From: an uncultured Planctomycetales bacterium
GTDB taxonomy: Bacteria; Omnitrophota; Gorgyraeia; Gygaellales; Profunditerraquicolaceae
Length of the DNA: 64,000 nt
Assembly: GCA_964645795.1 (NCBI GenBank)
Contig: CAZYCL010000009.1
Location: 505 to 64,504 of the forward strand
Direction of reading: 5' to 3'
Shown: positions 1,311 to 30,499 of the stretch, one piece after another
How the letters are laid out: each line of letters starts with the position of its first letter
Numbering within the stretch: position 1 is the stretch's first letter
The notes under the pieces: model-generated
Seen by the model: the letters and a program-made list of their open reading frames with translations, nothing else
Database searches by the model: none
Told to the model about the DNA's origin: nothing
Translations under genes and position numbers: made by a program

Positions 1311-1344
<34 letters not shown>

Positions 1345-2751: not shown

Positions 2752-2786
<35 letters not shown>

Positions 2787-3463
2787 TAACCTAAAAAGCT
2801 AGCCTGCTCTGATTAAATTCAGAGAATAATAACCAACTGTATGCGGGGATCTCCTCAAAAAATGTCGATACTAGCTTGGCGCATTAAGCCGGAGCAGTAA
2901 AAATGCGGCATTCACGGGGATAATCCGCAGGGAAGTCAAAAGGAGCATTTATGACCCCTCAGAGACCAGACGTTGGAAATTCCTGCCGAAGTTCAAGGTT
3001 ATCTCCTGAATGGATTGTAGGGTTTGTCGACGCAGAAGGATGCTTCCATGTTGGCATAAGCCAGCATAGCGATCTTCGTTCTGGATATCAAGTCCTTCCA
3101 GAATTAACCGTAGTCCAACATGAGCGCGATCTGGATTTGTTGCATGAATTGCGTTCAACGATGAATTGCGGCGTAGTAAGAAGAAATCACGGAGACAGGT
3201 TCTGCTGGAGAGTAAGAAATTTAAAAAATCTCTCAGAAGCGATTATCCCCTTCTTCGATAAATATCCGCTAAAGTCAAAGAAATCTTTAGAATACATGAA
3301 ATTCAGGAAAGTGGTTCAAATGATGCAAAAAGGAGAACATCTTACAAGAGAAGGCTTCTCACGGATAGTTAAAATTGCGTCTGAAATGAACCGCAGCAAA
3401 CCTCGAACAGTACAGGAGTTTAAGAGAGAGTCCACTCCGGAATGAAAATTCTGGATAACAGTG
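2787..3463 (+). mobile_element. group I intron in 23S rRNA at the site equivalent to E. coli U1931/A1932, carrying a homing endonuclease ORF
   Basis: Conserved exon ..CCTAAGGT | AGCGAAATTCCTTG is split by 677 nt. The 5' exon ends in U and the insert ends in G (omega-G). The ORF with a LAGLIDADG motif lies inside the insert. Confidence 0.8.
2951..3445 (+). CDS. LAGLIDADG homing endonuclease (single-motif, I-CreI-like size, 164 aa), intron-encoded
   Basis: The motif IVGFVDAEGCFHVGI matches the LAGLIDADG consensus. A Shine-Dalgarno sequence AAGGAG sits 8 nt upstream of the ATG. The ORF lies entirely inside the 23S insertion. Confidence 0.8.
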   Translation: MTPQRPDVGNSCRSSRLSPEWIVGFVDAEGCFHVGISQHSDLRSGYQVLPELTVVQHERDLDLLHELRSTMNCGVVRRNHGDRFCWRVRNLKNLSEAIIPFFDKYPLKSKKSLEYMKFRKVVQMMQKGEHLTREGFSRIVKIASEMNRSKPRTVQEFKRESTPE

Positions 3464-4100
3464 AGCGAAATTCCTTGTGGGGTAAGTTCCCACGCGCACG
3501 AATGGTTTAACAACCTAAGCGCTGTCTCAAAGAGAGACTCGGCGAAATTGTAGTGGCGGTGAAGATGCCGTCTACCCGCATCAAGACGAAAAGACCCCAG
3601 AACCTTTACTGTAGCCTGCTATTGGGATTTGGATCACTATGTGTAGCATAGGTGGGAGACTTTGAAGTCCAGGCGCTAGCTTGGGCAGAGTCGCAATGTG
3701 AAATACCACCCTTATTGCTCTAAGTTTCTAACTTGCAGCCGTTATCCGGCGCGAGGACAGTGACAGGCGGGCAGTTTGACTGGGGCGGTTCCCTTCTAAA
3801 AGATAACGAAGGGGCCCCAAGGTTGGCTCAGGGCGGTCGGCAATCGCCCGTGGAGCGCAAGCGCATAAGCCAGCTTAACTGCGAGTCGGACACGACGAGC
3901 AGATACGAAAGTAGGGGCTAGTGATCCGGTGGTTTAAAGTGGAATTGCCATCGCTCAACGGATAAAAGGTACTCTGGGGATAACAGGCTTATCGGGCTCG
4001 AGAGTTCACATCGACAGCCCGGTTTGGCACCTCGATGTCGGCTCATCCTATCCTGGGGCTGTATAAGGTCCCAAGGGTCCGGCTGTTCGCCGGTTAAAAG

Positions 4101-4136
<36 letters not shown>

Positions 4137-4421
4137 AAATAGACCATGCTGTCTTTAAATCTGGCTAATTGCTGGGAAATCTGAGTATCCCGTATTACTA
4201 CTTGATGATCAGTCTCTATATGAGATAATGATCGTCGGGAGTGAAAATATATGGGTGCAGACAATCAGCAGGAAAGACTGGGAAACTTTACCAGAATCTT
4301 CAGAGACTGTACGCCAGAAACCTGCCGAGAGGCAGTTTAAGATACAGTCCGAACTGCATAGCGATATGCAGAGTCTGGCAGAAATGTCTAGACCCTCTAG
4401 AAATAGAGAGTAACAATATTG
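4137..4421 (+). mobile_element. ORF-less group I intron in 23S rRNA (peptidyl transferase region, about E. coli U2604/U2605)
   Basis: Conserved exon GTCGTGAGACAGT | TCGGTCTCTATC is split by 285 nt. The 5' exon ends in U and the insert ends in G. A candidate internal guide GCTGTCT sits 12 nt into the insert and can pair with exon AGACAGU (terminal U.G). The exon distance between the two insertion sites is 673 nt, the same as E. coli 1931 to 2604. Confidence 0.65.
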
Positions 4422-4977
4422 TCGGTCTCTATCTGATGTGGGCGTTAGGATACTTGAAGGGGAGTTCTTTTCAGTACGAGAGGACCTTAAGAAACGAACC
4501 TCTGGTGTTCCGGTTGTCCTGCCAAGGGCAAAGGCCGGGTAGCTAAGTTCGGAAGGGATAAGCGCTGAAAGCATCTAAGTGCCAAACCCGCCCCAAGATT
4601 AGGTATCCCTGTGCCGCAAGGCACTGAAGGCTGGTCGAAGACTACGACCTCGATAGGCGCAATGTGTAAGATCCGTAAGGATTTGAGCTAATGCGTACTA
4701 ATCAGCCAACCGGCTTGACCTTAAATCATTTTCGGTTAAGCGTAGTTTATACCTCACGAGTTACTTATGAAGTTGTTAAATTCTCCTCCTGGCGCAAGCC
4801 AGGAGGAGATTGATTTTCTTGCAGACGCTGCCGAGAATAATATTACGGCGGCAACCTTAGTAAGCGCAGTTAGCGTAAAACAAAGGGTCTGCTAAATAAT
4901 TTAAGGCTCCCGACTTAAACCTGGATAAAACCAAGGTATCGTCGGGAACCAAAATTTTTCGTTTCACGAAAAATTTT

Positions 4978-5091
4978 GGGGTGCTGTTACCGAGGGGGAA
5001 ACACCCGTTCCCATTCCGAATACGGCAGTTAAGCCCCTCATGGCCGATGGTAGTGTACTCGTAAGGGTATGTGAGAGTAGGTAGGCGCTCC
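4978..5091 (+). rRNA. rrf: 5S rRNA
   Basis: CCCATTCCGAA..GTTAAGC..GCCGATGGTAGTGT..GAGAGTAGG motifs are present. The terminal helix GGGGTGC/GCGCTCC closes the molecule. Confidence 0.85.
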
Positions 5092-5100
5092 TTTAATTTC

Positions 5101-11933: not shown

Positions 11934-12320
11934 ATGCTGGGAGGTTTTCTAAGGGCTGGTTTATTCTGCCTTCTGCTTGTCAACTGTTGCGGATGTTTTG
12001 CGCTATTAGCGGGTGCGGCCGGAGGCGCAGGGACCGCGGTCTGGCTTTCCGGCAAGCTTAGCCAGGAGGTCAACGCAGATTTCGATGGTTGTGTTGAAGC
12101 TTCAAAAAAGGCGCTTAAGTCTCTTCGGCTCGAGATCGATAAGGAGACGGTAAAGAGCGATGTCGCCCAGATCATGAGCAGTTATAATGACGGCAGGACG
12201 GTATGGATAGATATACACAGGGTCACTTCCCGGGCCTCGCGCATAGAAGTAAGGGTAGGCCTGGCATCGGACAAGGAAGCCGCAGATGTGATCCTTAAGA
12301 AGATAATGCAGAATCTTTAA
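11934..12320 (+). CDS. putative lipoprotein
   Basis: GAGGAGGG RBS. Hydrophobic N terminus with LLLVNCCGC lipobox-like Cys. Confidence 0.5.
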   Translation: MLGGFLRAGLFCLLLVNCCGCFALLAGAAGGAGTAVWLSGKLSQEVNADFDGCVEASKKALKSLRLEIDKETVKSDVAQIMSSYNDGRTVWIDIHRVTSRASRIEVRVGLASDKEAADVILKKIMQNL

Positions 12321-18451: not shown

Positions 18452-18910
18452 ATGAATAAAAGCTTTTTGATCGCGGCGCTCATATCGTTTTCAGCCGTCT
18501 TGCCCGCGTATGCCGCAGCGGGTATCAGGGCCGAGGTCGACAAGAAGAGCGTGGTTGTCGGAGAGCACCTGGTCTATAAAATATCCGTTACGACCACGGA
18601 TAAAGACCAGCCGCAGATCAAGTTTCCCGAGTTCAAGGGCTTTAGGGTCCTTTCCAGCGCCCAATCCAGCTCGGTTTCATTCATAAATAACCGACTGGAA
18701 CGCAGCTTTATCTATGTCCTGATCATCTCTGCGTTAGAAAGCGGCAGCCTTACAATCCCGCAGGCGCAGCTTAAGATCAAAGACCAGGTCCTGAACTCAG
18801 AGAGTTTTGAAATAGAGGTAAGGGCTGGCGGGGTCGATCCCGAAGATAAGCCCGCAGTGCCTTTCCCCGCAGGAAAGCCTTACGGCAGCCAGGATCAGGT
18901 TACCCTTTGA
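18452..18910 (+). CDS. secreted hypothetical protein (BatD-like N-terminal region)
   Basis: Signal peptide (FLIAALISFSAVLPAYA). No catalytic motifs. Confidence 0.45.
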   Translation: MNKSFLIAALISFSAVLPAYAAAGIRAEVDKKSVVVGEHLVYKISVTTTDKDQPQIKFPEFKGFRVLSSAQSSSVSFINNRLERSFIYVLIISALESGSLTIPQAQLKIKDQVLNSESFEIEVRAGGVDPEDKPAVPFPAGKPYGSQDQVTL

Positions 18911-18941
18911 CCAAGATGCCGGTATCTCAAGATAGCGCCAG

Positions 18942-21035
18942 ATGAGCAAATCTCTGGATGCTCCTATCCGTTATTTAAAGGGCATCGGACCCAAGAGGGC
19001 CGACTCGTTGCTTGGGGCCGGCCTGAAATGCATCGAAGACCTCCTTTATTATTTTCCCCGACGCTACGAAGACCGGCGCAGCTTCTCTAGCATCTGCCGG
19101 CTCCAGATAGGCCAGACCGCGACAATCAAGGCCGAAGTGCAGGCCTGCAGCCAGCGCAGATCATTCAAACGCAGAGGTTTCAATATCCAGGAGGCCGCTT
19201 TAAGCGACGGCACCGGCAGGATATTCTGCGTATGGTTCAACCAGCCTTATTTGAAATCTTACTTTAAGCCGGGCCAGGCCCTGATAGCCCACGGAAAGGT
19301 CGAGCTCTACGGCAGAAGGCTGCAGATGAACTCTCCTGAATTCGAGCTGCTTGAAGACAAAGAAGATCCTTTGAGCCTGGGCAGGATCACCCCTGTTTAT
19401 CGCATCCCTGAATATTTCAGCCAGCGCACCCTGCGCAAGCTCCTGTGGGTCGCTTTAGAGGAGTACCTGCCGTATCTGCGTGACAGCATCCCCTACGATA
19501 TACGTCGCCGGAATAATCTTATAAACCTGGCCCAGGCGCTGCTTAATATTCATTTCCCCCAGACGCCTCAGTTGCAGCAGGAGGCATATAGAAGGCTGGC
19601 GTTCGACGAGTTCTTTATTTTCCAGCTACCGCTGGTATTGCGAAAGCTGCGCCGTAAGGATGCTTGCGGCATAGCGCATAAAACGCAAGGGGGGCTTACC
19701 GATTATTTCTTAGGCGGTCTTGCGTTTAAGCTGACGCAGGCCCAGTCCGCGGTAATTAACGAAATATCCGCAGATATGTCGGCGCCGGTTCCCATGCAGA
19801 GGCTCCTGCAGGGCGATGTGGGCTCCGGCAAGACTGTCGTCGCCCTCTACGCCTGCATCGCGGCTATCCAGGGAGGGTATCAAGCGTCTTTTATGGCGCC
19901 TACGGAGATCCTGGCCAGACAGCATTTTAACAAGATAAGCGCGCAACTGGCATCCGGCGGGAAGGGGCCGCTAAAAGATATAAAGATAGGCTTGCTTACG
20001 GCAAGCCTGAGCAGGCAGGATAAGGACGATCTGATCAGCGGGCTTGCCAATGGCAGCATAGACCTGGTCATAGGCACGCATTCGCTGCTGGAAGAAAAGG
20101 TAGAGTTCAAGAATCTGGGCCTGGTTGTGATCGACGAGCAGCATAAGTTCGGAGTAGGCCAGAGGGCCCTGCTTATGGGTAAAGGTTCGTCTTGCGACGC
20201 CCTTATAATGACCGCAACCCCAATACCCCGTACTTTGGCGATCACCCTTTATGGGGAGCTTGATATCTCGGTAATAAACGAGCTTCCTGCGGGTCGCATC
20301 CCGGTTAAAACCATGAGGTTTGGGGCGCAAAGCAGGGCAAATGCATATGAACTGGCCAGACAGGAGTTGGCTAAAGGCAACCAGGTTTTTGTGGTCTATC
20401 CGGTGATAGAAGACTCATTTGCCCTGGATATTGCCGGAGCCAAAAGGATGTTTGTGCATCTTAAAAGTTCGCAGTTTAAGGATTTCAGGGTAGGCCTGGT
20501 ACACGGCAGGCTTAAAGATAAGAGCCAGCAGGAGTTGATGGGTAAATTCAGGAATAAAGAGTTGGATGTTCTGGTGGCCACAACGGTACTTGAGGTGGGC
20601 ATCGATATCCCCGATGCTACCTGTATGATAATCGAGAATGCCGAACGCTTCGGCTTAAGCCAGCTGCACCAGCTCAGGGGCCGGGTCGGCAGAAGCGTAA
20701 AACAGTCGTTGTGTCTTTTGGTTTCGGACGCGCAGACAGATGAGGCTAATTTAAGGCTGGAGGCCATGGTCAGGAGCACGGATGGTTTTATCATCGCGGA
20801 AGAGGACCTGAAGATCCGCGGACCGGGAGAGTTTTTCGGAGCCAGGCAGCACGGCCTTAGCGAATTAAGGATAGGCGATCCCATTACGCAGATGCATCTG
20901 TTAAAGCAGGCAAGGCAGGAGGCGTTGTCACTGGCGCAGTCAGATCCTCATCTGGAGAGCAGGGAAGGCCGGCTACTGAAAACCAAGCTTATGCAGCGTT
21001 TCCCCGAATATAGAAGCATGATGGTCATAGGTTAG
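18942..21035 (+). CDS. recG: ATP-dependent DNA helicase RecG
   Basis: N-terminal wedge domain. Helicase motifs GDVGSGKT and DEQHKFG and the C-terminal RecG blocks. Confidence 0.9.
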   Translation: MSKSLDAPIRYLKGIGPKRADSLLGAGLKCIEDLLYYFPRRYEDRRSFSSICRLQIGQTATIKAEVQACSQRRSFKRRGFNIQEAALSDGTGRIFCVWFNQPYLKSYFKPGQALIAHGKVELYGRRLQMNSPEFELLEDKEDPLSLGRITPVYRIPEYFSQRTLRKLLWVALEEYLPYLRDSIPYDIRRRNNLINLAQALLNIHFPQTPQLQQEAYRRLAFDEFFIFQLPLVLRKLRRKDACGIAHKTQGGLTDYFLGGLAFKLTQAQSAVINEISADMSAPVPMQRLLQGDVGSGKTVVALYACIAAIQGGYQASFMAPTEILARQHFNKISAQLASGGKGPLKDIKIGLLTASLSRQDKDDLISGLANGSIDLVIGTHSLLEEKVEFKNLGLVVIDEQHKFGVGQRALLMGKGSSCDALIMTATPIPRTLAITLYGELDISVINELPAGRIPVKTMRFGAQSRANAYELARQELAKGNQVFVVYPVIEDSFALDIAGAKRMFVHLKSSQFKDFRVGLVHGRLKDKSQQELMGKFRNKELDVLVATTVLEVGIDIPDATCMIIENAERFGLSQLHQLRGRVGRSVKQSLCLLVSDAQTDEANLRLEAMVRSTDGFIIAEEDLKIRGPGEFFGARQHGLSELRIGDPITQMHLLKQARQEALSLAQSDPHLESREGRLLKTKLMQRFPEYRSMMVIG

Positions 21036-21036
21036 C

Positions 21037-21148
21037 CTATTTCTTGAAATACTCCCTTATTATGGTATCCGCGATGTTTTGGGCCAGGAGGCGGTTGCCT
21101 TTCTCGGTGCAGTGGCCGAAGTCGCCGGCGAAGATGTCGGTAAAGTAT
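21037..21148. repeat. identical 112-nt block at the 3' ends of both TPR-SGNH paralogs (second copy at 22437-22548)
   Basis: TTCTTGAAATACTCCCTTATTATGGTATCCGCGATG...GGTAAAGTATGC is identical in both copies. Similarity falls to about 75% immediately beyond the block. Confidence 0.85.
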
Positions 21149-22440
21149 GCATTGTAACCGTCTTTGGACACCGCGTCCTTAAAGAGGCCTTCGTTGTCCA
21201 CGAAGATTATGTTTTTGCGTTCCTGCGGGCCAAAGATCATTTTCAGCGGCAAGAGGCTGCGCATAGGGTATTGTACGGCGATCAGCTTTATCCCGCGGCT
21301 ATCGAGCATGCTTTTAAGCCGGTGGTAGTTGCCGATAGTCATTGATTTATCGCCTTCAAGCTTCAGGCGGTCCAAGACATCCGTGTATTTAGTCATAAGC
21401 GCATAATCGCCATTTTTCCTGTAAATAGAAATCAAGTAAGCATAGGCTTTAGTTTCCTTTGGGTCCACGCCGATGGCGTCCAAAAAACATTTCTCGGCAA
21501 GGCCGGGCTTATTTTTGTGCAAATAGATCCTGCCAAGCCCCAGGAGCACGGGGATCTGATTGGGGTCGGCCTCCAGGCTCCTGATGAAGTATTTCTCGGC
21601 GGTATCGAGCTCTTCGGGCGCGTCAAAATAGATCCAGCCTAGCGCGCGGGCGGCTTCGCCATTACGGGGGTCTATACGCAACGCCTGCTTGAAGTATCTT
21701 TTTGCGTGCGCTTGATCTTCAAGCATGCAACAGCTCCAGGCAAGCCCCAGGTAAACAGGAATGGTGGGTTGCGTGCGCAAGGCTTTTTGGAATAGCTCGC
21801 GGGCCTTGGCGTATTCTTTTTGGTCCAAAAGCTGCCTGGCTCGCTCAGCGTATGAGGCAGGTTTTGCCTTGGGTCCCTCTGCGGCATACCCTTTCTTAGA
21901 AGGCAGGTTTTGACATTTAGTCAATGATCTTAGCTTGTGTTTTAGATGCAAGAGGATCAGCCCGGACAGCTTATATGTCTTGAGTTGTTTAAAGACATCT
22001 GCCGTCACCTTGCCGTATGAGCAATCATAAGGGATATGATCTCCGGAGTCGTTTGCGCCCATCATGCAGATGACCATATCCGGATGGTATTGGTTCAAGT
22101 TCTTTTCCATCTGGTCGATAATGAGCCACGTCTTAGCCCCTGCAAGCCCTTTGTCTATAACGCTGACCTTTATACCCGCAACCCCTTGTTCGAGTTGTTC
22201 TTTTAAGAACCCCGGATACTGGTCCCGGGTAGTGGATTCTCCGATGCACAGTATCACAAAGGAGTGTTTTTTTGAAAGCGCAATCCGGTTTTTTATCTCC
22301 TGCATCATAAGCATGGCGCCGCCTGCCAGGCGCAGGCCGGTTTCCAGGATAAGCAGGCAGATAAAGAGCCCGAAGAATACAAGGAGGATTTTCTGCGACA
22401 GGCTTGTTATTGGACTGTTGCTGCGCCTTGGCCGGGTCAT
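21037..22440 (-). CDS. membrane-anchored TPR-repeat protein with a split SGNH/GDSL-hydrolase fold (paralog 1)
   Basis: N-terminal TM helix. Block I LCIGESTT, block III MMGANDSG, about 7 TPR repeats inserted, then block V DFGHCTEKG at the C terminus. Confidence 0.65.
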   Translation of the reverse strand: MTRPRRSNSPITSLSQKILLVFFGLFICLLILETGLRLAGGAMLMMQEIKNRIALSKKHSFVILCIGESTTRDQYPGFLKEQLEQGVAGIKVSVIDKGLAGAKTWLIIDQMEKNLNQYHPDMVICMMGANDSGDHIPYDCSYGKVTADVFKQLKTYKLSGLILLHLKHKLRSLTKCQNLPSKKGYAAEGPKAKPASYAERARQLLDQKEYAKARELFQKALRTQPTIPVYLGLAWSCCMLEDQAHAKRYFKQALRIDPRNGEAARALGWIYFDAPEELDTAEKYFIRSLEADPNQIPVLLGLGRIYLHKNKPGLAEKCFLDAIGVDPKETKAYAYLISIYRKNGDYALMTKYTDVLDRLKLEGDKSMTIGNYHRLKSMLDSRGIKLIAVQYPMRSLLPLKMIFGPQERKNIIFVDNEGLFKDAVSKDGYNAYFTDIFAGDFGHCTEKGNRLLAQNIADTIIREYFKK

Positions 22441-24062
22441 TTCTTGAAATACTCCCTTATTATGGTATCCGCGATGTTTTGGGCCAGGAGGCGGTTGCCT
22501 TTCTCGGTGCAGTGGCCGAAGTCGCCGGCGAAGATGTCGGTAAAGTATGCCCCGTAGCCGTCTTTGGCCACGGCGTCCCTGAAGACTTTATCGTTATCCA
22601 CGAAAATTATGTTTTTGGTGTGTGACTCGAGGGTTTTCTTTAACGGCGCGATGTCGCGCATGGGATATTGTGCCGCAACCAGCATAATATTGCGGCCGGC
22701 AGTAATACTTTGCAGTTTGCGGTAATTTCTCACGGTCATCGGCACATATCCGGCTGTTCTTATGGCCTGCGCCTTCATCATATCGCCTAAGGCAAGCTCA
22801 GGGTCGCCGGTTTGACCATAGACGAACGATCTGGCAGCGAAGGGTATATCGCTGTCCGGCATTAACTCCATGAGCTTTCCGGAGCAATCCTCGGCTTTCG
22901 CCTTGTTGCCGGATTGCAGGTAGATCCATTGCAGGCAAAGATAGTAAAGGCTGCAGTCCGGTTTAAGCCTTATTGCCTTTTTGCAATACCTCTTGGCAGC
23001 GCTAAATTTCTTCTTTTCCCTGTATAACACGGCCAGATCGCCGTAAGCTACATCATTTGAGGGGTAATATTTAATAAGTTGCCTTAAACACCTTTCGCTT
23101 AAGCCGTGTTTACCCATATCGAAATAAACCCAGCTTAATCCCTGCAGGGCTGTTTCGTGCCTGGGATAAAGCTCTAAAAGCCGCTTGAAGGCCTTTTCGC
23201 AAAGCTCATAGTTTCTTGTCCGTTTATACAACCAGCATAATCCTAAATGGGTATTGGGATTACGGGGATTCAGCTCGATAGCTTTCTTGAAGCAACTTTG
23301 CGCCCGCCCGTAATCCGCCTTAGCCTTATAGATATTGCCCAGGCCTATGTATGCTTCGTCCGCTTCAATTGTGCCGGAGCAGGTATCTATGGCCTTGTTG
23401 AAGCAGGCTTCGGCTGCCCGGTATTGCTTCTTGGTGATGAAGCCCCAGCCTGACTCTACCAGGGCCTTGATGTCCTGCAGCCTCTCTGCCCGGGAAGCCT
23501 TCCGTGAACCCGGGTATTTGTTATTTAGTTGGGCGATCAGGCGGTTTTCGTTTAACTCTTCCAGTTTCTTTCTTAGATGCAGCCTGATCATCAGAGAAAG
23601 TTTGTAAGTTTTAAGGCTTTTGATAGCCGCAAGGAGCCCGTGTTTTGTCTGGCGCTGCCAGGGGATAAAGCCTTCCCTGTCATTTATGCCCATCATTGAC
23701 ACGATCATGGCGGGCCGGTATTGGTTTATCAGCGGTTCCAAACGCTCAATTATAAAGTCGGTTTTGACCGCCATAAGGCCCTTGTCGATTACGCTAAAAC
23801 TCAAGCCGAGACCGGCATCGTTGAGAAGCTTCTCCAGAAAAGCGGGGTAAGCATTTTGGGTGGTGGATTCGCCTACGCAGAGTATGGTAAAGCTATGCAG
23901 GCGCCCCATCCTGCGCCGGTTTTGCGCATCCTGGATGGAAATGAGGATGCTGCCGGCCAACCGCATTGATGCTTCGAGGACAATAAAGGACAGGATCAGT
24001 CCGAGGCCGATAAGGGCAAGCTTTTGACTTAATGGCGTGACGGCGCGCTTGGTTGATTTCAT
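22437..24062 (-). CDS. membrane-anchored TPR-repeat protein with a split SGNH/GDSL-hydrolase fold (paralog 2)
   Basis: Same architecture: LCVGESTT, MMGINDREG, a longer TPR array, then DFGHCTEKG. The C-terminal 37 aa are identical to paralog 1. Confidence 0.65.
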   Translation of the reverse strand: MKSTKRAVTPLSQKLALIGLGLILSFIVLEASMRLAGSILISIQDAQNRRRMGRLHSFTILCVGESTTQNAYPAFLEKLLNDAGLGLSFSVIDKGLMAVKTDFIIERLEPLINQYRPAMIVSMMGINDREGFIPWQRQTKHGLLAAIKSLKTYKLSLMIRLHLRKKLEELNENRLIAQLNNKYPGSRKASRAERLQDIKALVESGWGFITKKQYRAAEACFNKAIDTCSGTIEADEAYIGLGNIYKAKADYGRAQSCFKKAIELNPRNPNTHLGLCWLYKRTRNYELCEKAFKRLLELYPRHETALQGLSWVYFDMGKHGLSERCLRQLIKYYPSNDVAYGDLAVLYREKKKFSAAKRYCKKAIRLKPDCSLYYLCLQWIYLQSGNKAKAEDCSGKLMELMPDSDIPFAARSFVYGQTGDPELALGDMMKAQAIRTAGYVPMTVRNYRKLQSITAGRNIMLVAAQYPMRDIAPLKKTLESHTKNIIFVDNDKVFRDAVAKDGYGAYFTDIFAGDFGHCTEKGNRLLAQNIADTIIREYFKK

Positions 24063-24197
24063 ATAATCCCCATTATATATTAAAAGGCAGTTGATACAAA
24101 CTTATATTAGCATGATGCTTATTTTAAGATTATTGTTGTTTTAAGATGGTAAATAATATAGAATAAATCAATAATTTGTCGCCAAGGACAGCCAAAG

Positions 24198-25397
24198 GTG
24201 AGAAGCAAAAAGATAGTAATTACCGGTTTAGGCATACTTTCTTCATGCGGGATAGGCAGGGCTGCTTTTTATGACAACATTTTTTCCGGCCGCTGCGGGA
24301 TAGGGCCGGTATCATTATTTGACGTCTCGCAGCTTAAGGTAAGATCTGCCGCCCAGATCAAGGATTTCAATCCTCAACAGTTCCTGGGCCCTAAGGGGTT
24401 GCGCAATCTTGACCGCAGCACCAAGCTTATCATGTCTGCTGCCAGGCTTTGCCTGGATGATGGCGGCCTGGCAATCGGGCAGGAGAATTCGCGCAGTGTC
24501 GGGATATCCGTAGGTACGACCCTGGGCAGCCTGGCGAGCATCATGGAGTTTGATACCGAAGGTATAAGGGAAGGGCCGAATTTCGTAAATCCGGCACTGT
24601 TTCCCAATACCGTGATCAACTCGCCTGCCAGTCAGGTCTCGATCAAATTCAATATCAAGGGCTTTAATGCCACCATCTCAAACGGTTTTACCGCCAGCCT
24701 TGACGCAATAGATTACGGGCGGGACATGCTGTGTTTCGGTAAGGCCAGGTATGTGCTTGCCGGAGGGGTAGAGGAGCTATGCCTTCAGACTTTCATGGGT
24801 TTTTATAAATCCGGTTGTCTGGCGCCGGTTCCGGGCGGCGAAGGCCTGGTGCTGGGAGAGGGTGCTGGTTTAGTCCTGATGGAAGAGATGGAAACAGCCC
24901 TGGAGAGAAAGGCGCGCATATTCGCCCGGGTCAGCGGATTCGGCGCGGCGTTTGACTCTTGCGGGATAAACAGGTATAATCCTTCTTGCGCCGGTTTAGC
25001 CGCTGCCATGCGCTCGGCGATAGAGGATGCGGGATTGGGTTTGAGCGATATCGACCTTATATGCTCTGGCGCCAACTTTAATCCTGACGGCGATGCCATG
25101 GAGGCCCGGGCCATAAAAGAGGTCTTTGGGGGCGATTTTGATAAACCCGCGATAAGCTGCGTTAAATCCATGACCGGCGAATGTTTTAGCGCCTCCGGGA
25201 TTATCCAGTTGGCGGCTGCGCTTGCTGCTATAGAGAGGAATGAACTCTTTCCTTCGGTTAACATGAAAGACAGCCGGCTCAACAATGGGTTCAATCTTAT
25301 AATTGATAAAGCTGTTACCCGGGCCGTCAATAATGTTCTGATAAATAACTTCGGCCCAACCGGCTGTAATTCAAGTTTGATAGTATCGCGCTTGTAG
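24198..25397 (+). CDS. beta-ketoacyl synthase homolog with all three catalytic residues replaced (KS-like or chain-length-factor-like), GTG start
   Basis: Full KS thiolase fold. Active-site Cys is Phe (ISNGFTAS versus TACTSG), His303 is Asn (SGANFNPDGD versus NAHGTSTP) and His340 is Glu (KSMTGECF versus KSMTGHLLG). Confidence 0.75.
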   Translation: MRSKKIVITGLGILSSCGIGRAAFYDNIFSGRCGIGPVSLFDVSQLKVRSAAQIKDFNPQQFLGPKGLRNLDRSTKLIMSAARLCLDDGGLAIGQENSRSVGISVGTTLGSLASIMEFDTEGIREGPNFVNPALFPNTVINSPASQVSIKFNIKGFNATISNGFTASLDAIDYGRDMLCFGKARYVLAGGVEELCLQTFMGFYKSGCLAPVPGGEGLVLGEGAGLVLMEEMETALERKARIFARVSGFGAAFDSCGINRYNPSCAGLAAAMRSAIEDAGLGLSDIDLICSGANFNPDGDAMEARAIKEVFGGDFDKPAISCVKSMTGECFSASGIIQLAAALAAIERNELFPSVNMKDSRLNNGFNLIIDKAVTRAVNNVLINNFGPTGCNSSLIVSRL

Positions 25398-25460
25398 GAT
25401 ATGTAGATATATGTCAATATATGTAAATATAAGTTAATTAAGGTTGATTAACATACACAT

Positions 25461-26207
25461 ATGTCAGATAATAAGGTTGCTATAGTTACCGGCGCCAGCC
25501 GCGGTATAGGTAGGGCAATAGCCTTGCGTTTAGCAAAAGCAGGCAATGACATTGTTTTTACCTATCTGAAAAACGCCGATTCCGCCGATGCCCTGGCGGA
25601 TGAGATCGGAAAACTCGGCAGGAAGGCGCTGGCCCTGCAGGTTGACGTGCGCGATTTTGATAAGGCAAAAGAGCTGATTGAAAGGACCAAAGAGGCCTTT
25701 GGCAGGCTGGATATATTGGTCAATAACGCAGGAGTCATTCGCGACAAGGCCCTTATGATGATGAGCCGTGAGGATTGGCTGGACGTTGTGGACACAAACC
25801 TTGGAGGGGCCTTCAATCTTACCAGAAACGCCATCGTAACTTTCCTGAAGCAGAAGAGCGGCGTCATTGTTAATGTCAGTTCCGTCAGCGGGGTCGCGGG
25901 CCTGGCGCGCCAGACCAATTACTGTGCCTCCAAAGCCGGGATCATCGGTTTTACCAAAGCCCTGGCAAAAGAAGTCGCCGCTTATAATATCCGGGTCAAT
26001 GCCGTTGCCCCGGGATTTATCGTCACCGATATGATCGCGGAACTTAAACCGGAGTACAGGGAATCCATGATCAGGAATATACCTCTGGGCAGGTTCGGGA
26101 CTCCGGATGAGGTGGCCAGGGTAGTGGATTTCCTGGTAAGCGAGAGGTCTGATTATATCACCGGCCAGGTGATAGTAGTTGACGGCGGCATGTTTATGTA
26201 TAAATAA
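25461..26207 (+). CDS. 3-oxoacyl-ACP reductase paralog (SDR, FabG-like)
   Basis: TGASRGIGRAIA cofactor-binding motif. NNAG block. Catalytic YCASKAG (YxxxK). Confidence 0.85.
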   Translation: MSDNKVAIVTGASRGIGRAIALRLAKAGNDIVFTYLKNADSADALADEIGKLGRKALALQVDVRDFDKAKELIERTKEAFGRLDILVNNAGVIRDKALMMMSREDWLDVVDTNLGGAFNLTRNAIVTFLKQKSGVIVNVSSVSGVAGLARQTNYCASKAGIIGFTKALAKEVAAYNIRVNAVAPGFIVTDMIAELKPEYRESMIRNIPLGRFGTPDEVARVVDFLVSERSDYITGQVIVVDGGMFMYK

Positions 26208-26223
26208 AGAGGAGGAACTTCAA

Positions 26224-26469
26224 ATGCAGGACCTGGAAAATGAAATACGGGGTATCATTGCCGAGATAATAGAAAGAGAGCCTTCCGAGGTGACCCTTGA
26301 TGCCAAATTCTTCGAAGAGCTTGGGGTAGATTCCATGATGGCCCTGGAGATCATGGCGGCAATCGAGAAGAAGTATAAGATAAGCATACCCGAGGAGAAG
26401 CTCGCCCAGCTTACTAATCTCAGGCAGACCTTGGCAGTCGCCCAGGAGTACCTATCCAAAAATAAATGA
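26224..26469 (+). CDS. dedicated acyl carrier protein (second ACP in the window)
   Basis: 81 aa. LGVDSMMALE phosphopantetheine-attachment Ser motif. AGAGGAGG RBS. Confidence 0.8.
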   Translation: MQDLENEIRGIIAEIIEREPSEVTLDAKFFEELGVDSMMALEIMAAIEKKYKISIPEEKLAQLTNLRQTLAVAQEYLSKNK

Positions 26470-26906
26470 TTGATATAGATAAGATTCAGCAGATACTGCC
26501 TCACCGTTATCCGTTCTTGCTCATCGATAGGGTCGTCGAGATCGATCCCGGCAAAAAGATCGTGGCATTAAAGAACGTCAGTTTCAATGAAGGTTTTTTC
26601 TCCGGGCACTTCCCGGATAAGCCCGTAATGCCCGGCGTCCTGATCATTGAGGCCATGGCTCAGGCCTCGATCCTCCTTTTTTACCCTGAAAAAGAAAAAT
26701 CTCCCGGACAGGGGCTGGTGTATTATCTGGGCGCAGTGAAGGTAAGGTTTAAGAGGCCGGTTATAGCAGGAGATCAGCTTATGATCACGGTAGAGCCCGT
26801 CAAAATGCTCTCCGGCATAGGTATAGTCAATGCCGTGGCCACCGTAGGCGACAAGGAGGTCGCTAGCGGAGAAATCAGCTTCAGCGCTAAACCCAATGCA
26901 AAATAG
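26466..26906 (+). CDS. 3-hydroxyacyl-ACP dehydratase (FabZ/FabA hotdog family) paralog
   Basis: LPHRYPFLLIDRV..GHFP..PVMPGVLIIEAMAQ matches the FabZ signature. It is translationally coupled to the ACP and the downstream KS. Confidence 0.85.
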   Translation: MIDIDKIQQILPHRYPFLLIDRVVEIDPGKKIVALKNVSFNEGFFSGHFPDKPVMPGVLIIEAMAQASILLFYPEKEKSPGQGLVYYLGAVKVRFKRPVIAGDQLMITVEPVKMLSGIGIVNAVATVGDKEVASGEISFSAKPNAK

Positions 26907-28110
26907 CAGAGTTGTGATTACCGGGTTAGGGGTCATTTCTTCCATAGGTATAGGCAAGGATAAATTTTGGGACGCCCTTATCCAGGGCAGGTCCGGGATC
27001 AGCCGCATAACGGGTTTTGATACCTCCTGCTATCAAAATCATAATGCCGGCCAGGTCCGGGATTTTGAACCTTTGGATTTCATCTCAAAAGAAAGAGCCG
27101 CTACCATGGGCCGCGCTTCTTGTCTGGGCATAGCTGCGGCAAGACTGGCGGCCAGCGATGCCCGCCTGCGGCCGGAGTATTATCAGCAGCCGGATATCGG
27201 TATAGTGATGGGTACGACCATGGGGGAGTCCCAGGTAATAGAGGGGCTTAACGACGCCTGGGTAAGAGATGGCCACCAGGCGATTGATGCAGATTGGATC
27301 CCGCGCTACCCATGTAACGTTATTGCCGCAAATATCGCCATGGAGTTTGGGGCCAAAGGACCGAACTTTACCATACCTTGCGCCTGCGCAGCGGGTAATT
27401 ATGCCATAGGTTATGCATCCGATCTTATAAGGACCGGCAGGGCCAGGATGATGCTCGCCGGAGGCTCAGACGCTTTTTCGCGGCTGGCCTTCATGGGATT
27501 CAACCGGCTATTCGCCGTAGCCGGCGAGATCTGCCAGCCTTTTGACAAGAACCGTAAAGGCATGATGGTAGGTGAAGGGGCCGCTGTCTTAGTGCTGGAA
27601 TCGTTGGATGAGGCCTTGTCCCGCGAAGCCCCGATATACGCGGAAGTCGCAGGTTACGGCCTCAGCTGTGATGCGCATCACATGACTGCGCCTTTTGCAG
27701 AGGGTATTGCCCAGGCGATCAAAAGCTCTATTGATGCCTGCGCAGTAAAGCCGGAAGAAGTAGATTATATAAGCGCTCACGGGACCGGAACTGCTTCCAA
27801 CGATAAAGAGGAGTGTCTGGCGATAAAGAAGGTTTTCGGCGAGAGGAGAGTTGCAGCCAGCTCCATAAAATCCATGCTCGGCCACACTATGGGGGCTGCC
27901 TCGGCAATAGAGGCGCTTGCCTGCTGCCTGGTTATAACCGGTGGCGTGATCCCGCCGACCATAAATTACAAGACGCCGGATCCCGAATGCGACATTGACT
28001 GTGTGCCTAACACAGCCCGGAAAGCCGACGTGCGCGTTGCCATAAATAACGCTTCTGCCTTCGGCGGCAACAACTCCTGCCTGGTGCTTAAAAAGTATCC
28101 CCCTAATTAA
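26896..28110 (+). CDS. beta-ketoacyl-ACP synthase (KAS I/II-like) with an intact catalytic triad
   Basis: Cys in CACAAGNYAIG. His in SAHGTGTASND. His in KSMLGHTMGAAS. Confidence 0.85.
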   Translation: MQNSRVVITGLGVISSIGIGKDKFWDALIQGRSGISRITGFDTSCYQNHNAGQVRDFEPLDFISKERAATMGRASCLGIAAARLAASDARLRPEYYQQPDIGIVMGTTMGESQVIEGLNDAWVRDGHQAIDADWIPRYPCNVIAANIAMEFGAKGPNFTIPCACAAGNYAIGYASDLIRTGRARMMLAGGSDAFSRLAFMGFNRLFAVAGEICQPFDKNRKGMMVGEGAAVLVLESLDEALSREAPIYAEVAGYGLSCDAHHMTAPFAEGIAQAIKSSIDACAVKPEEVDYISAHGTGTASNDKEECLAIKKVFGERRVAASSIKSMLGHTMGAASAIEALACCLVITGGVIPPTINYKTPDPECDIDCVPNTARKADVRVAINNASAFGGNNSCLVLKKYPPN

Positions 28111-28149
28111 AATTCCCATTTCTATAATTTGTGATATAATACTTTCTTC

Positions 28150-28986
28150 ATGGAAACTCCCATCAGCAAGAAATACAATTTCTATCTTAACGGCACCAAC
28201 GGCAAGGCTGTCCTGCTCATCCACGGCATAACCGGCACTCCCAGCGAAATGCACTACTTTGGGAAAGGGCTCAATAAGGCAGGCTTCTCCGTCCTTTGCA
28301 ATACCCTGCCCAGGCACTGCGAAAGCCTGGGGGAGCTTAAAAAAGTGACCTGGCAGGAGATATACGCTTCCTGCGTAAGGGACTTCCAAGAGCTCTTAAA
28401 AATGAACAAAAAAGTGTTTGTTGCGGGGCTATCTATGGGGGCGCTTATGTGCCTGCATATTGCCAGCGAGTTCCAAAGCGAGGTAACCGGGATCATCGCC
28501 CTGGCCCCTACTTTCTTCTATGACGGCTGGGCGCTGCACAAAGGTAAGTTTCTCATGGAGCTGTTCTGGCATATACCTTTTGTGCGTAATACCGTGAATA
28601 TACGGGAAGGCTGGCCCTACGGTTTAAAAAACGAAAATCTGCGTTCCGGTATCGAGAGGTTCTATAAGAATGCCAGGGCCAGCGAGTTCGACGACAAGGT
28701 CCTGCTTTTCGGCAGCCCCTTTTTCCCCCTTGCCTGCCTTTATCAGCATAAGCTCTTCGTTAAAGTGGTGAACAAGAACCTGTCCGCCGTCAAGAACCCC
28801 ATACTCGTAATTCACGCCAAAGAAGATGATATGACCAGCCCCAGGAATGCCGAGTATCTGTACCGCGCAGTCTCATCCGCCAGAAAATCCCTGGTATTAC
28901 TGGAAGACTCTTACCACATGGTCACTATTGATAAAGAAAAAAAGAAGGTAGTCGAAGATTCGGTTAATTTCTTAAGCTCCCTATAA
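28150..28986 (+). CDS. alpha/beta-hydrolase (carboxylesterase or lysophospholipase-like)
   Basis: HG oxyanion motif LLIHGITG. Nucleophile elbow GLSMGA (GxSxG). C-terminal Asp and His candidates. Confidence 0.7.
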   Translation: METPISKKYNFYLNGTNGKAVLLIHGITGTPSEMHYFGKGLNKAGFSVLCNTLPRHCESLGELKKVTWQEIYASCVRDFQELLKMNKKVFVAGLSMGALMCLHIASEFQSEVTGIIALAPTFFYDGWALHKGKFLMELFWHIPFVRNTVNIREGWPYGLKNENLRSGIERFYKNARASEFDDKVLLFGSPFFPLACLYQHKLFVKVVNKNLSAVKNPILVIHAKEDDMTSPRNAEYLYRAVSSARKSLVLLEDSYHMVTIDKEKKKVVEDSVNFLSSL

Positions 28987-28993
28987 TACGAAA

Positions 28994-30499
28994 ATGAAAT
29001 ACGATGCCGCGGTAATCGGTGCCGGAATGGCGGGTGTCATTTCTGCGCTTAAGCTTTCCGCCTCCGGGGCCAAGGTCGTCCTTTTTGAAAAACTCCCCGT
29101 TCCCGGGGGTTTTGCGACCAGCTTTAAGAGGAGGGGGTTTTTGTTTGAGTCGGCTATCCATTGCGTTGACTCGCTAGGCGAGAACGGCGAGATGCGCCTT
29201 TTCTTCGAGGCCCATGGCATAGACCAGAAAGTCGATTTTATCAAGCTAAAGGATTTCAGCAGGATCATCTATCCTGAACACGATTTTGTCGCTGATTTCA
29301 GCAAAGATAATTTCTTGCAGTACCTCAAGAGCAGCTTCTCGGCAGAGGAGCCAGGCATCCGAAGGCTTTTTGAAAAGTTCGACTCCTTCTACCGCCAGTT
29401 CGACAGCTATTGCGTATCCCGCATGCCGCAGTGGCTGAAGTTGGCCGGGGGCCTGTTTTTTTACCCCATGATCGCAAAAGTTTCTTTAGCCACCGCAGAC
29501 CAGCTCATATCGGCTTATATTAAAGATGCAAAATTAAAGGCGCTGATAGGTGAGATCTGGAGGTATATGGGGCTGGCGCCTTCCAGGCTGTCGGCCTTTT
29601 ATTTTCTGCTGGTTTTGCGGGGGTTTTTTTATGAGCCTACCTGTTACGTAAAAGGCGGGTTCGGCAGGTTGTTCTCTGCCATAACGGATAAGATAAAGGA
29701 AAACGGCGGTACTGTCCTGTTCAACACCGAGGTAAGATCGATTAAAACTGCTGCCGGCAGGCGCGTAAGAGGGTTGGTCGCTTCAGGAGGGAAGGAATAC
29801 GAGGCACCTTGCGTTATATCCAACGCCAGCGCCCCCGACACCCTTTTAAGGCTTTTGGATAATCCCAAGGCCTCAGGCGCCGACAGGATAAAGCTCTCGG
29901 GACTTGAGAAGTCGGTCTCTGCTTTCCAGGTGTATCTGGGCCTTAGGCTTCCGGCCAAGGGCATGGGTATGGACCACGCCATGATCTCCGTAAATACCTG
30001 CTATGATCATGACCTGAACTACAAGTATTCTGTTTTCGGAGATTATGAGAATTGCCCGTTTACCATGGTCGATCATGCCCAGATCGACCCGTCATTGGTA
30101 GAGCCGGGAAAGGGGAGCCTGATGGTCATGGCCCTGGATAATTACTCGAACTGGGCCGGCCTTGCAGTCCAGGAGTATAAGAAGAAGAAGGCTGCGGTCG
30201 CGGCAAAGCTTATCAGCCGGGCAGAGCGATATCTGCCGGGCCTAAGCGGCTGCATTGAGGTCATGGAGGCAGCTACGCCGCTTACTATGGCCAGATACGG
30301 CTCTTCTCCTGAAGGGGCTATATATGGGTTTGCTCAGACCCCGGACCAGGCCGGGATAAGCAGGTTGGCTCAAAAGACCGCCGTAAAGGGCTTGTTTTTG
30401 ACCGGTGCCTGGACCAGGCCCGGAGGAGGGGTGCACGGCTGCTTTGTGTCCGGGATAGATGCCGCTGAAATGGCCATGAAACATTTGGGCAGGAGATAG
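28994..30499 (+). CDS. FAD/NAD(P)-binding oxidoreductase of the phytoene-desaturase (CrtI) amine-oxidase superfamily
   Basis: N-terminal DAAVIGAGMAGVISALKL..FEKLPVPGG dinucleotide-binding fold. About 500 aa, typical of CrtI-like enzymes. Confidence 0.7.
   Translation: MKYDAAVIGAGMAGVISALKLSASGAKVVLFEKLPVPGGFATSFKRRGFLFESAIHCVDSLGENGEMRLFFEAHGIDQKVDFIKLKDFSRIIYPEHDFVADFSKDNFLQYLKSSFSAEEPGIRRLFEKFDSFYRQFDSYCVSRMPQWLKLAGGLFFYPMIAKVSLATADQLISAYIKDAKLKALIGEIWRYMGLAPSRLSAFYFLLVLRGFFYEPTCYVKGGFGRLFSAITDKIKENGGTVLFNTEVRSIKTAAGRRVRGLVASGGKEYEAPCVISNASAPDTLLRLLDNPKASGADRIKLSGLEKSVSAFQVYLGLRLPAKGMGMDHAMISVNTCYDHDLNYKYSVFGDYENCPFTMVDHAQIDPSLVEPGKGSLMVMALDNYSNWAGLAVQEYKKKKAAVAAKLISRAERYLPGLSGCIEVMEAATPLTMARYGSSPEGAIYGFAQTPDQAGISRLAQKTAVKGLFLTGAWTRPGGGVHGCFVSGIDAAEMAMKHLGRR

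What the first reader, a model, noticed from the sequence alone, without database searches (positions are those of the whole stretch)
21037..24062. Tandem paralogs in which an SGNH hydrolase fold is split by a long TPR array, with 112 identical nucleotides at their 3' ends
Both proteins have an N-terminal TM anchor followed by SGNH blocks I (GES) and III (GxND). About 280-330 residues of TPR repeats come next, and only then the block-V DxxH motif (DFGHCTEKG) in a C-terminal segment of about 80 aa. In other words, a repeat array is inserted inside the catalytic domain. The two genes overlap by ATGA. Their last 112 nt are 100% identical while flanking sequence is only about 75% identical, which indicates recent gene conversion or strong constraint on the C-terminal catalytic piece. 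They lie divergently adjacent to the lipid cassette above (shared 135-nt AT-rich control region at 24063-24197), so a functional link such as an esterase or acyltransferase acting on its product is plausible but unproven.
Basis: seen in the sequence. Interest (0 to 1): 0.6.

Follow-up and report, generated by a model that had tools for sequence, protein, structure and literature searches.

The report
TPR array nested inside SGNH esterase
Two neighbouring genes in an Omnitrophota genome encode membrane-anchored esterase-type (SGNH) enzymes whose catalytic domain is interrupted by a long protein-binding repeat array; this belongs to a large, unnamed family, and its position next to a lipid-synthesis gene cluster is an accident of one lineage, not a functional link.

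Summary
Genes at 21037-22440 and 22437-24062 (minus strand, ATGA overlap) are old paralogs, about 35% identical in protein. Their 3' ends share 112 identical nucleotides.

Each protein has an N-terminal membrane anchor and SGNH blocks I-III. A stalk plus 5-7 TPRs follows, and the last ~100 residues carry strands 4-5 and the block V DxxH.

With the insert removed in silico, gene A folds confidently (pLDDT 93). All 50 top structural neighbours are SGNH/GDSL esterases, so the two halves form one catalytic domain.

This is a large undescribed family, not a one-off. There are about 3,000 clusters at 50% identity, mostly Omnitrophota, always split, and often in tandem arrays of up to seven. Other arrays also show long identical tracts between neighbours, so the 112-nt tract is routine gene conversion.

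The proposed link to the KS lipid cassette is not supported. The closest relative has recG followed directly by the same cassette with no SGNH-TPR genes. Elsewhere the family sits among glycan-modification and radical-SAM genes.

The most likely function is a periplasmic esterase or acyltransferase acting on an envelope glycoconjugate, with the TPR array docking the substrate or a partner. The substrate is unknown.

A nested accessory domain has a precedent (Ape1). I rate this a new variant of a known kind, of moderate interest.

The parts
22437..24062 (-). Gene B: 541-aa membrane-anchored SGNH protein with a nested array of about 7 TPRs. It is the upstream gene of the pair.
   Evidence: ORF; Pfam TPR families plus weak Lipase_GDSL_2/DUF459 hits; N and C HMM hits with a 310-aa insert
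21037..22440 (-). Gene A: 467-aa membrane-anchored SGNH protein with a nested array of about 5 TPRs. Its start overlaps gene B's stop (ATGA), with an AAGGGAG Shine-Dalgarno sequence inside gene B's tail.
   Evidence: ORF; PF13472 at 33.8 bits, above the gathering score; AF2 model with pLDDT 85; junction sequence
22327..22401 (-). Gene A N-terminal transmembrane anchor (about residues 14-38). It is preceded by a segment of net charge +4, which implies N-in topology with the catalytic domain outside the cytoplasm.
   Evidence: Long helix 14-55 in the model. Family-wide counts before the TM segment are 438 K/R vs 53 D/E.
22042..22275 (-). Gene A SGNH N-piece (residues 56-133): strands 1-3 with block I G67-E-S69, block II G98 and block III G128-x-N130-D131.
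   Evidence: Conservation in 68 sequences; DSSP of the models; PF13472/DUF459 hits
21352..22041 (-). Gene A insert (residues 134-363): a low-confidence loop, a conserved amphipathic stalk helix (154-176), a linker, and ten TPR helices (197-363).
   Evidence: Model; TPR Pfam hits; Foldseek hits to TPR proteins
21040..21351 (-). Gene A SGNH C-piece (residues 364-467): helix 3, strands 4-5, block V D440-F-G-H443 and the C-terminal helix.
   Evidence: (DFGH aligned to DRVH of 7ddy)
23673..23906 (-). Gene B SGNH N-piece (residues 53-130)
   Evidence: Alignment to gene A
22749..23672 (-). Gene B insert (residues 131-438): stalk plus about 7 TPRs
22440..22748 (-). Gene B SGNH C-piece (residues 439-541) with block V
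21039..21150 (.). Repeat copy 1: 112 nt identical to copy 2, extending to 21217 at 92%. It encodes the last 37 residues, including D440 and H443.
   Evidence: Logan contig ends at 21068 and 21039
22439..22550 (.). Repeat copy 2, extending to 22617 at 92%. It also holds the ribosome-binding site and the first two bases of gene A's start codon.
   Evidence: Logan contigs start at 22494 or 22468
24063..24197 (.). AT-rich (27% GC) divergent intergenic region. The KS-proximal part (about 24150-24176) matches a palindromic motif upstream of the same cassette in L087, so it belongs to the cassette and not to the inserted pair.

Best explanation
The two genes are tandem, co-transcribed paralogs of a large, uncharacterised family centred on Omnitrophota.

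Shown:
- Each protein has a single N-terminal membrane anchor, followed by one SGNH (GDSL-type) catalytic domain.
- The loop after block III (GxND) carries a nested module. This module is a conserved stalk helix plus a TPR solenoid of variable length, about 5 repeats in gene A and about 7 in gene B.
- The N-piece (strands 1-3, blocks I-III) and the C-piece (strands 4-5, block V DxxH) assemble into one five-stranded SGNH fold.
- A complete Ser-Asp-His triad and the oxyanion-hole residues are conserved.
- The 112 identical nucleotides are the footprint of recent gene conversion or unequal exchange between the conserved 3' ends of neighbouring paralogs. This process recurs throughout the family's arrays.
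- The pair is a lineage-specific insertion between recG and a pre-existing KS cassette.

Inferred:
- The catalytic domain faces the periplasm.
- The enzyme removes or transfers an acyl (probably acetyl-type) group on an envelope glycoconjugate or similar polymer.
- The TPR solenoid sits beside the active-site cleft. It docks the substrate carrier or a partner protein, much as separate TPR proteins partner SGNH enzymes in exopolysaccharide systems.
- The actual substrate is unknown.
For: Architecture and fold:
- The full-length model has pLDDT 85, with three strands before and two after the TPR helices.
- The TPR-excised gene A, modelled with 68 natural homologs as the alignment, gives pLDDT 93.3 and pTM 0.90.
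- All 50 best Foldseek PDB hits are SGNH/GDSL enzymes, including Axe2, TesA/TAP and CE3, with TM 0.57-0.75 over about 190-220 columns.
- After excision, the PF13472 match crosses the junction.
- PDB profile hits are almost all SGNH. 4rsh aligns at 6-159 and 2hsj at 34-161, and DFGH aligns on the block V DRVH of 7ddy.

Catalytic residues: G67, G98, G128, D131 and H443 are invariant. S69, N130 and D440 are at least 90% conserved in 68 sequences.

Family size and architecture:
- 682 word-index hits.
- 388 stretches in GTDB representative genomes.
- 3,032 cluster representatives at 50% identity with E<=1e-3, and 899 with E<=1e-30. All 150 best match in two stretches.
- 119 of 119 complete genes in the fetched loci carry a 166-429 aa insert.

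Conversion: exact shared tracts of 299, 237, 231, 124 and 110 nt occur between tandem paralogs in other MAGs. The codon-identity argument gives about 1e-14.

Topology: the positive-inside rule applies, with 438 K/R vs 53 D/E before the TM segment.

Context:
- Carbamoyltransferase in 14 of 82 loci, WbuX-like amidotransferase in 11, and polyprenyl-phosphate GT2 in 9.
- PMT_2/GT-C plus TPR membrane proteins are also neighbours.
- The nearest structural neighbours are carbohydrate acetylesterases.

Insertion: synteny of L085-L087.
Against: - No substrate or activity is shown.
- Genomic context is heterogeneous. Radical-SAM genes are the commonest neighbours (26 of 136 near, 18 of 136 farther away), and these point to cytoplasmic peptide chemistry, not glycans. 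In the window itself no glycan genes flank the pair.
- No MBOAT-type acyl donor partner appears among frequent neighbours, so a transferase role lacks a donor.
- The excised-construct model forces the two halves to be contiguous.
- Block I is GES, not the canonical GDS.
- Periplasmic topology rests only on charge bias.
Confidence: 0.6

Rival explanations
1. The pair works with the adjacent KS/KR/ACP/DH/KS/hydrolase/desaturase cassette. On this reading it is an esterase or acyltransferase acting on the cassette's lipid product, expressed from a shared divergent control region.
For: The pair is divergently adjacent to the cassette across a 135-nt AT-rich spacer. SGNH enzymes include thioesterases and lysophospholipases such as TesA, which is among the structural neighbours.
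Against: The same cassette, in the same order and directly after recG, exists in the closest relative (L087) without any SGNH-TPR gene. L086 lacks both. None of 79 family loci has the cassette adjacent, and KS genes lie within 10 kb in only 3. The KS-proximal promoter motif is conserved with L087, so the cassette keeps its own control region. The cassette already has its own alpha/beta hydrolase.
Confidence: 0.05
2. The family belongs to radical-SAM/PqqD (RiPP-like) islands. The TPR array binds a modified peptide, and the SGNH domain trims or de-acylates it outside the cytoplasm after export. TAP-type SGNH enzymes also have protease and arylesterase activity.
For: Radical-SAM, SPASM, B12-rSAM, PqqD, small ORFs and ABC transporters surround family genes in L001-L004. 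Radical_SAM is the most frequent Pfam family among operon partners, at 26 of 136, with SPASM in 8. None appears among about 75 genes of three unrelated recG loci. TPRs classically bind peptides.
Against: Radical-SAM genes are nearly as common more than 5 kb away (18 of 136). The association is therefore with the island and not specific to the operon. No radical-SAM gene flanks the pair in the window. The nearest structural neighbours are carbohydrate esterases. No conserved precursor peptide was identified.
Confidence: 0.15
3. The identical 3' tract, or the tandem arrangement itself, is an assembly artefact: a collapsed or chimeric repeat.
For: The source is a short-read MAG. One Logan contig (L090) joins recG through the repeat to gene B's body and skips gene A. 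In other runs the copies differ by one SNP, so the MAG's perfect identity could be a popped bubble.
Against: Contigs from four other runs end or start exactly k-1 bases into the repeat, at the positions expected for two real copies with different flanks: 21068, 22468 and 22494. L005 shows gene A flanked by the repeat on both sides. Comparable tracts occur between tandem paralogs in many MAGs from different projects and assemblers.
Confidence: 0.07
4. The tract is identical because of strong functional constraint at the nucleotide level, for example an RNA or translation-initiation element, and not because of recent conversion.
For: Copy 2 contains the Shine-Dalgarno sequence and start codon of gene A. 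The tract encodes the catalytic Asp and His.
Against: Copy 1 is followed by the end of recG, not by another gene start. Constraint on a ribosome-binding site covers about 20 nt, not 112-179. Across genomes the same region is conserved only at the protein level, at about 60% amino-acid identity. In other arrays the identical tracts fall in the 5' SGNH piece instead (L020, L023).
Confidence: 0.03

Closest known systems
SGNH/GDSL hydrolase superfamily (for example Axe2 acetylxylan esterase 3w7v/4jko, E. coli TesA/TAP 1ivn, CE3 2vpt)
   Same: Same five-stranded alpha/beta/alpha fold. Block I Ser, block II Gly, block III Asn and block V DxxH occupy the canonical positions. Structural similarity gives TM 0.57-0.75.
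   Different: The catalytic domain is interrupted after block III by a 166-429 aa stalk plus TPR solenoid. Block I is G-E-S and block V is D-F-G-H-C with an invariant Cys. The protein has an N-terminal membrane anchor. Sequence identity to solved enzymes is only 14-21%. No curated Pfam or NCBIfam model covers the family, and gene B falls below the PF13472 threshold.
Ape1 peptidoglycan O-acetylesterase (Neisseria, Campylobacter): an SGNH domain with a nested CBM35-type domain
   Same: This is a precedent for an accessory substrate-binding domain inserted inside the SGNH domain of a periplasmic envelope-modifying esterase (review PMC9487903; bioRxiv 10.1101/2021.09.23.461501).
   Different: The nested module here is an alpha-helical TPR solenoid of variable repeat number, not a beta-sandwich CBM. 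The insertion site in Ape1 was not compared. The family has no detectable sequence relationship to Ape1 beyond the superfamily.
AlgK-AlgX (also PelB-PelA and PgaA-PgaB): TPR scaffold plus polymer-modifying enzyme in exopolysaccharide secretion
   Same: A periplasmic SGNH-type acetyltransferase or esterase works together with a TPR protein that also binds the polymer (PMC9734138). This is the best functional analogy for combining TPR with SGNH.
   Different: In those systems TPR and SGNH are separate polypeptides, and the TPR is attached to an outer-membrane porin. Here they form one inner-membrane-anchored chain, with the TPR nested in the enzyme. No synthase, c-di-GMP receptor or porin operon surrounds the genes.
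MBOAT-SGNH acyltransferase pairs (PatA-PatB, AlgI-AlgJ/X, DltB-DltD)
   Same: An N-terminally anchored, extracytoplasmic SGNH domain acts on envelope polymers (PMC12148441).
   Different: No MBOAT gene is a frequent neighbour, and there is none in the window. Those SGNH partners have no TPR insert.

Membership tests
SGNH/GDSL hydrolase superfamily | Block I Gly-x-Ser with the nucleophile Ser at the C-terminal end of strand 1 | tested here: met
   G67-E68-S69 follows strand 61-67. G67 is invariant and S69 is at least 90% conserved in 68 sequences. The residue before Ser is Glu, not Asp.
SGNH/GDSL hydrolase superfamily | [quoted passage not shown] | tested here: met
   G98 is invariant after strand 2. 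G128-x-N130-D131 follows strand 3.
SGNH/GDSL hydrolase superfamily | Block V DxxH on a loop between two C-terminal helices | tested here: met
   D440-F-G-H443 (H invariant) lies in the loop before the last helix. It aligns to DRVH of PDB 7ddy.
SGNH/GDSL hydrolase superfamily | Single five-stranded parallel-sheet alpha/beta/alpha fold formed by the whole domain | tested here: met
   The excised construct has pLDDT 93.3, and its top 50 Foldseek PDB hits are all SGNH. The full-length model has the same five strands. Caveat: triad distances were not measurable.
SGNH/GDSL hydrolase superfamily | Pfam Lipase_GDSL_2 (PF13472) gathering score | tested here: inconclusive
   Gene A scores 33.8 bits against a cut-off of 32.9, which passes. 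Gene B scores 18.1 bits, which fails. Matches are partial because of the insert.
SGNH/GDSL hydrolase superfamily | Esterase or acyltransferase activity | not testable with these tools
   Requires biochemistry.
TPR repeat proteins | Multiple 34-residue helix-turn-helix repeats matching the TPR profiles | tested here: met
   TPR_1, TPR_2 and TPR_8 score well above their cut-offs in both genes. The model has ten antiparallel helices at 197-363. Foldseek hits include CTPR, OGT and MamA.
MBOAT-SGNH envelope acyltransferase systems (PatAB, AlgIJ, DltBD type) | A partner MBOAT membrane acyltransferase encoded alongside | tested here: not met
   There is none in the window around the pair. MBOAT is not among the 25 most frequent Pfam families of 136 operon partners or of 136 distant ORFs.
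Synthase-dependent EPS modification complexes (AlgK-AlgX type) | Operon with a polysaccharide synthase, a c-di-GMP receptor and a TPR-porin export component | tested here: not met
   The neighbours are recG and a KS cassette in the window. Elsewhere they are carbamoyltransferase, WbuX-like, GT2, PMT_2 and rSAM genes, and no such operon is present.
Ape1-type SGNH with a nested accessory domain | Accessory binding domain inserted within the SGNH domain | tested here: met
   The insert lies between block III and helix 3 in all 119 genes examined. The inserted module is TPR and not CBM35, so this is an analogy of design and not family membership.

The most novel reading that the evidence does not exclude
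The family could be a lineage-expanded toolkit of periplasmic enzymes with one constant SGNH chemistry. A nested TPR solenoid of variable length and fast-diverging sequence would set target specificity. Tandem arrays of up to seven or more copies would be kept uniform in their catalytic halves by gene conversion while the TPR modules diverge. The targets could be differently modified envelope or host-surface glycoconjugates or exported modified peptides in these host-associated nanobacteria. This would be a new design principle for SGNH enzymes, with the binding solenoid threaded through the catalytic domain next to the active site.
Probability: 0.2. Interest if true: 0.65.

Novelty: new variant of a known kind. 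Interest (0 to 1): 0.42.

Why it matters
About 3,000 sequence clusters, often more than ten copies per genome in a poorly understood phylum, are currently labelled only 'tetratricopeptide repeat protein'. Recognising them as intact SGNH enzymes with a nested TPR module gives them a testable biochemical identity. It also adds a second, structurally different example of a binding domain nested in the SGNH fold. It flags an abundant envelope-modifying activity in Omnitrophota. For annotation of this window, it removes a false lead, because the genes are not part of the neighbouring lipid cassette.

Tried and rejected
- Foldseek of the full-length model against PDB returned only TPR proteins in the top 50, so it said nothing about the SGNH question.
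This was solved by using the excised window sequence as query with full-length natural homologs as the alignment.
- NCBIfam gave only partial TPR hits and no family name.
- The listing of cluster members gave no names or accessions.
- An exact look-up of gene B found no record.
- The promoter and terminator scan was no better than shuffled sequence.
- Comparing identity region by region, to test whether homogenisation is specific to the SGNH halves, was negative. The SGNH-to-TPR identity ratio is similar in tandem pairs (0.75/0.50/0.76) and in between-genome pairs (0.57/0.35/0.60). There is therefore no evidence for special diversification of the TPRs.
- Radical-SAM enrichment turned out to be island-wide and not operon-specific.
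- Literature searches found no description of a TPR-split SGNH.
Full report
**1. The observation**

The window holds two minus-strand ORFs, 21037..22440 (gene A, 467 aa) and 22437..24062 (gene B, 541 aa). They overlap by ATGA. BLASTP gives 35% identity over the full length, E 3e-99.

The last 112 nt before the final two bases of the stop codons are identical (21039-21150 = 22439-22550). A 179-nt stretch is 92% identical.

A codon-aware alignment shows the rest of the genes at about 50% nucleotide identity and about 35% third-position identity. Only 63 of 150 codons are identical at positions where the residues are identical. All 37 sense codons in the tract are identical, which has a probability of about 1e-14 under the background rate. 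The tract is therefore recent.

**2. Is the repeat an assembly artefact?**

Five independent per-run Logan assemblies (k=31) touch the locus.
- L088 and L089 run from upstream of recG and stop at window 21068, which is 30 nt (k-1) into copy 1.
- L005 is exactly 21039-22468. That is gene A with the whole of copy 1 at its 3' end and 30 nt of copy 2 before its start.
- L091 and L092 run from the KS cassette through gene B and stop at 22494.

These are the break points expected in a de Bruijn graph for two real copies with different flanks.

L005 carries T at 21124, where the window has G in both copies. The break at 22494 equals 22523-30+1. So in those runs the copies differ by one synonymous SNP and the exact repeat is 85 nt. 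The MAG's 112/112 may be strain-specific or a popped bubble.

One short contig, L090, joins recG, the repeat and gene B's body, skipping gene A. This is either a real deletion haplotype produced by recombination between the direct repeats or a graph path in a low-coverage run. I could not resolve it.

**3. Architecture**

Pfam finds many TPR families in the middle of both proteins. It finds Lipase_GDSL_2, DUF459 and NonGDSL only in the N-terminal part.

A 68-sequence family alignment shows the following:
- Invariant: G67, G98, G128, D131, H443.
- At least 90% conserved: S69, N130, D440.
- Motifs: C-x-G-E-S-T-T, G-x-N-D and D-F-G-H-C-T.

The AlphaFold model of gene A (pLDDT 85.3) has these elements:
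- a long N-terminal helix (14-55) containing the membrane anchor;
- strands 61-67, 92-96 and 122-126;
- a low-confidence loop;
- a conserved helix at 154-176;
- ten TPR helices at 197-363;
- a helix at 366-381, strands 385-389 and 411-414, and a C-terminal helix.

**4. Do the halves make one SGNH fold?**

Foldseek with the full model returns only TPR proteins, so I excised the insert in silico (residues 56-133 joined to 364-467).
- The PF13472 match then crosses the junction.
- A profile of excised sequences hits almost only SGNH/GDSL structures in PDB. The alignments run from block I to block V (4rsh 6-159, 2hsj 34-161), and DFGH lands on DRVH of 7ddy.
- Modelled with full-length natural homologs as its alignment, the excised sequence gives pLDDT 93.3 and pTM 0.90.
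- All 50 best PDB neighbours of that model are SGNH/GDSL enzymes: Axe2, AlAXEase, TesA/TAP, CE3 and others, with TM 0.57-0.75.

I could not measure triad distances.

**5. A large family**

- The window is from an Omnitrophota MAG. RecG's named relatives are all Omnitrophota, at 61-66% identity.
- The word-index search finds 682 relatives, named at most 'tetratricopeptide repeat protein'.
- A GTDB scan finds 388 stretches, mostly in Omnitrophota, with some in Elusimicrobiota, Firestonebacteria and Sumerlaeota.
- An exhaustive phmmer search with the excised sequence finds 3,032 cluster representatives at 50% identity (899 at E<=1e-30). All 150 best match in two stretches.
- In the fetched loci, 119 of 119 complete genes have an insert of 166-429 aa.
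- Tandem arrays are common: seven genes in L075, and four with 4-nt overlaps in L023.
- Un-split membrane-anchored SGNH relatives, and relatives with TPRs at another site, lie nearby.
- Long exact tracts between array neighbours recur (299, 237, 231, 124 and 110 nt), in either SGNH half.
- The SGNH halves are more conserved than the TPRs both within arrays and between genomes, in similar proportion. Conversion probably just follows sequence conservation.

**6. The lipid-cassette link**

- In L087, the closest RecG relative at 66% identity, recG is followed after 73 nt by the same cassette: KS, KR, ACP, DH, KS, hydrolase, CrtI-like, then RsmD. No SGNH-TPR gene is present.
- L086 goes straight from recG to rsmD. 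L085 has cassette remnants.
- Cassette proteins are absent next to the family in 79 loci.
- A 27-nt motif upstream of KS is shared with L087.

The pair is therefore an insertion into a variable recG-rsmD interval. The link is not supported.

**7. Function**

- Charge bias places the N-terminus inside the cell and the enzyme outside the cytoplasm.
- Recurrent neighbours elsewhere are a NodU-like carbamoyltransferase, a WbuX-like sugar amidotransferase, an ArnC/PpgS-like GT2, GT4, and multi-TM PMT_2 plus TPR proteins.
- Radical-SAM, SPASM and PqqD genes are also abundant, but across the whole island.
- No MBOAT partner is seen.

I infer a periplasmic esterase or acyltransferase acting on an envelope glycoconjugate, with TPR-mediated docking. 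The peptide (RiPP) model remains a weaker rival.

**8. Comparison and novelty**

Nested accessory domains in SGNH enzymes are known (CBM in Ape1; PMC9487903). TPR proteins are known to partner SGNH enzymes (AlgK-AlgX; PMC9734138). No paper or curated model describes a TPR solenoid nested in an SGNH domain.

Verdict: this is a new variant of a known kind, real and abundant. Its function is unresolved and its interest is moderate.

Noticed in passing
window 811-4722 (23S rRNA), introns 2791-3454 and 4075-4371, ORF 2951-3445: The 23S rRNA gene spans 3,912 nt against a 2,925-nt model and contains two group I introns. A 164-aa ORF sits inside the first intron and may be a homing endonuclease. A 5S rRNA lies at 4977-5093, and two tRNAs lie at 233-388.
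   Followed up: no
window 21033-21039: The recG stop codon and the gene A stop codon (opposite strands) are separated by a single nucleotide. That leaves no room for terminators between the convergent genes.
   Followed up: no
L090 (Logan ERR4519278) vs window 18810-21150 and 22439-23361: This contig joins recG, the repeat and gene B's body, skipping gene A. It may be a deletion haplotype produced by the direct repeats, or a k=31 path artefact.
   Followed up: partly
window 21124 / 22524: Logan contig L005 has T at 21124, where the window has G in both repeat copies. Contigs L091 and L092 break at 22494, as expected if the copies differ at this site in those samples.
   Followed up: yes
window ~24150-24176; L087 ~12112-12139: An AT-rich motif upstream of the KS cassette is conserved, matching at 22 of 27 positions. 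In L087 it is a perfect palindrome (AAATGATATA...TATATCATTT). It is a candidate operator for the cassette.
   Followed up: no
window 21036-30499; L085, L086, L087: The recG-rsmD interval varies among related Omnitrophota. L087 and the window hold the full KS/KR/ACP/DH/KS/hydrolase/CrtI-like cassette. L085 holds DH and KS_C fragments plus a FemAB-like gene. L086 holds nothing.
   Followed up: partly
L006 496-1488; L021 3302-4324; L027 4051-5022; L037 1778-2767; L008 13188-14456 and 18322-19785: Un-split membrane-anchored SGNH relatives (about 330 aa) sit next to family members. There is also a relative with two TPRs inserted between strands 4 and 5, and a GDS-type relative with TPRs after block III.
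   Followed up: partly
L001 2393-13712; L002 3315-21470: Family genes are embedded in islands rich in radical-SAM, B12-rSAM, SPASM, PqqD, runs of 42-67 aa ORFs and ABC transporters, which look like RiPP clusters. A phage-type integrase lies at the edge of L002.
   Followed up: partly
L026, L063, L065, L078, L080 and others (clusters 1, 2 and 5): A recurrent trio abuts family genes in 8-14 loci: a NodU-like carbamoyltransferase, a conserved 73-aa ORF with no family hit, and a WbuX-like PP-loop amidotransferase.
   Followed up: partly
gene A residues C65, C388, C444 (window about 22246-22248, 21277-21279, 21109-21111): Three cysteines are invariant or nearly invariant across the family. One of them immediately follows the catalytic His (G-H-C-T). 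A possible disulfide or functional role was not examined.
   Followed up: no
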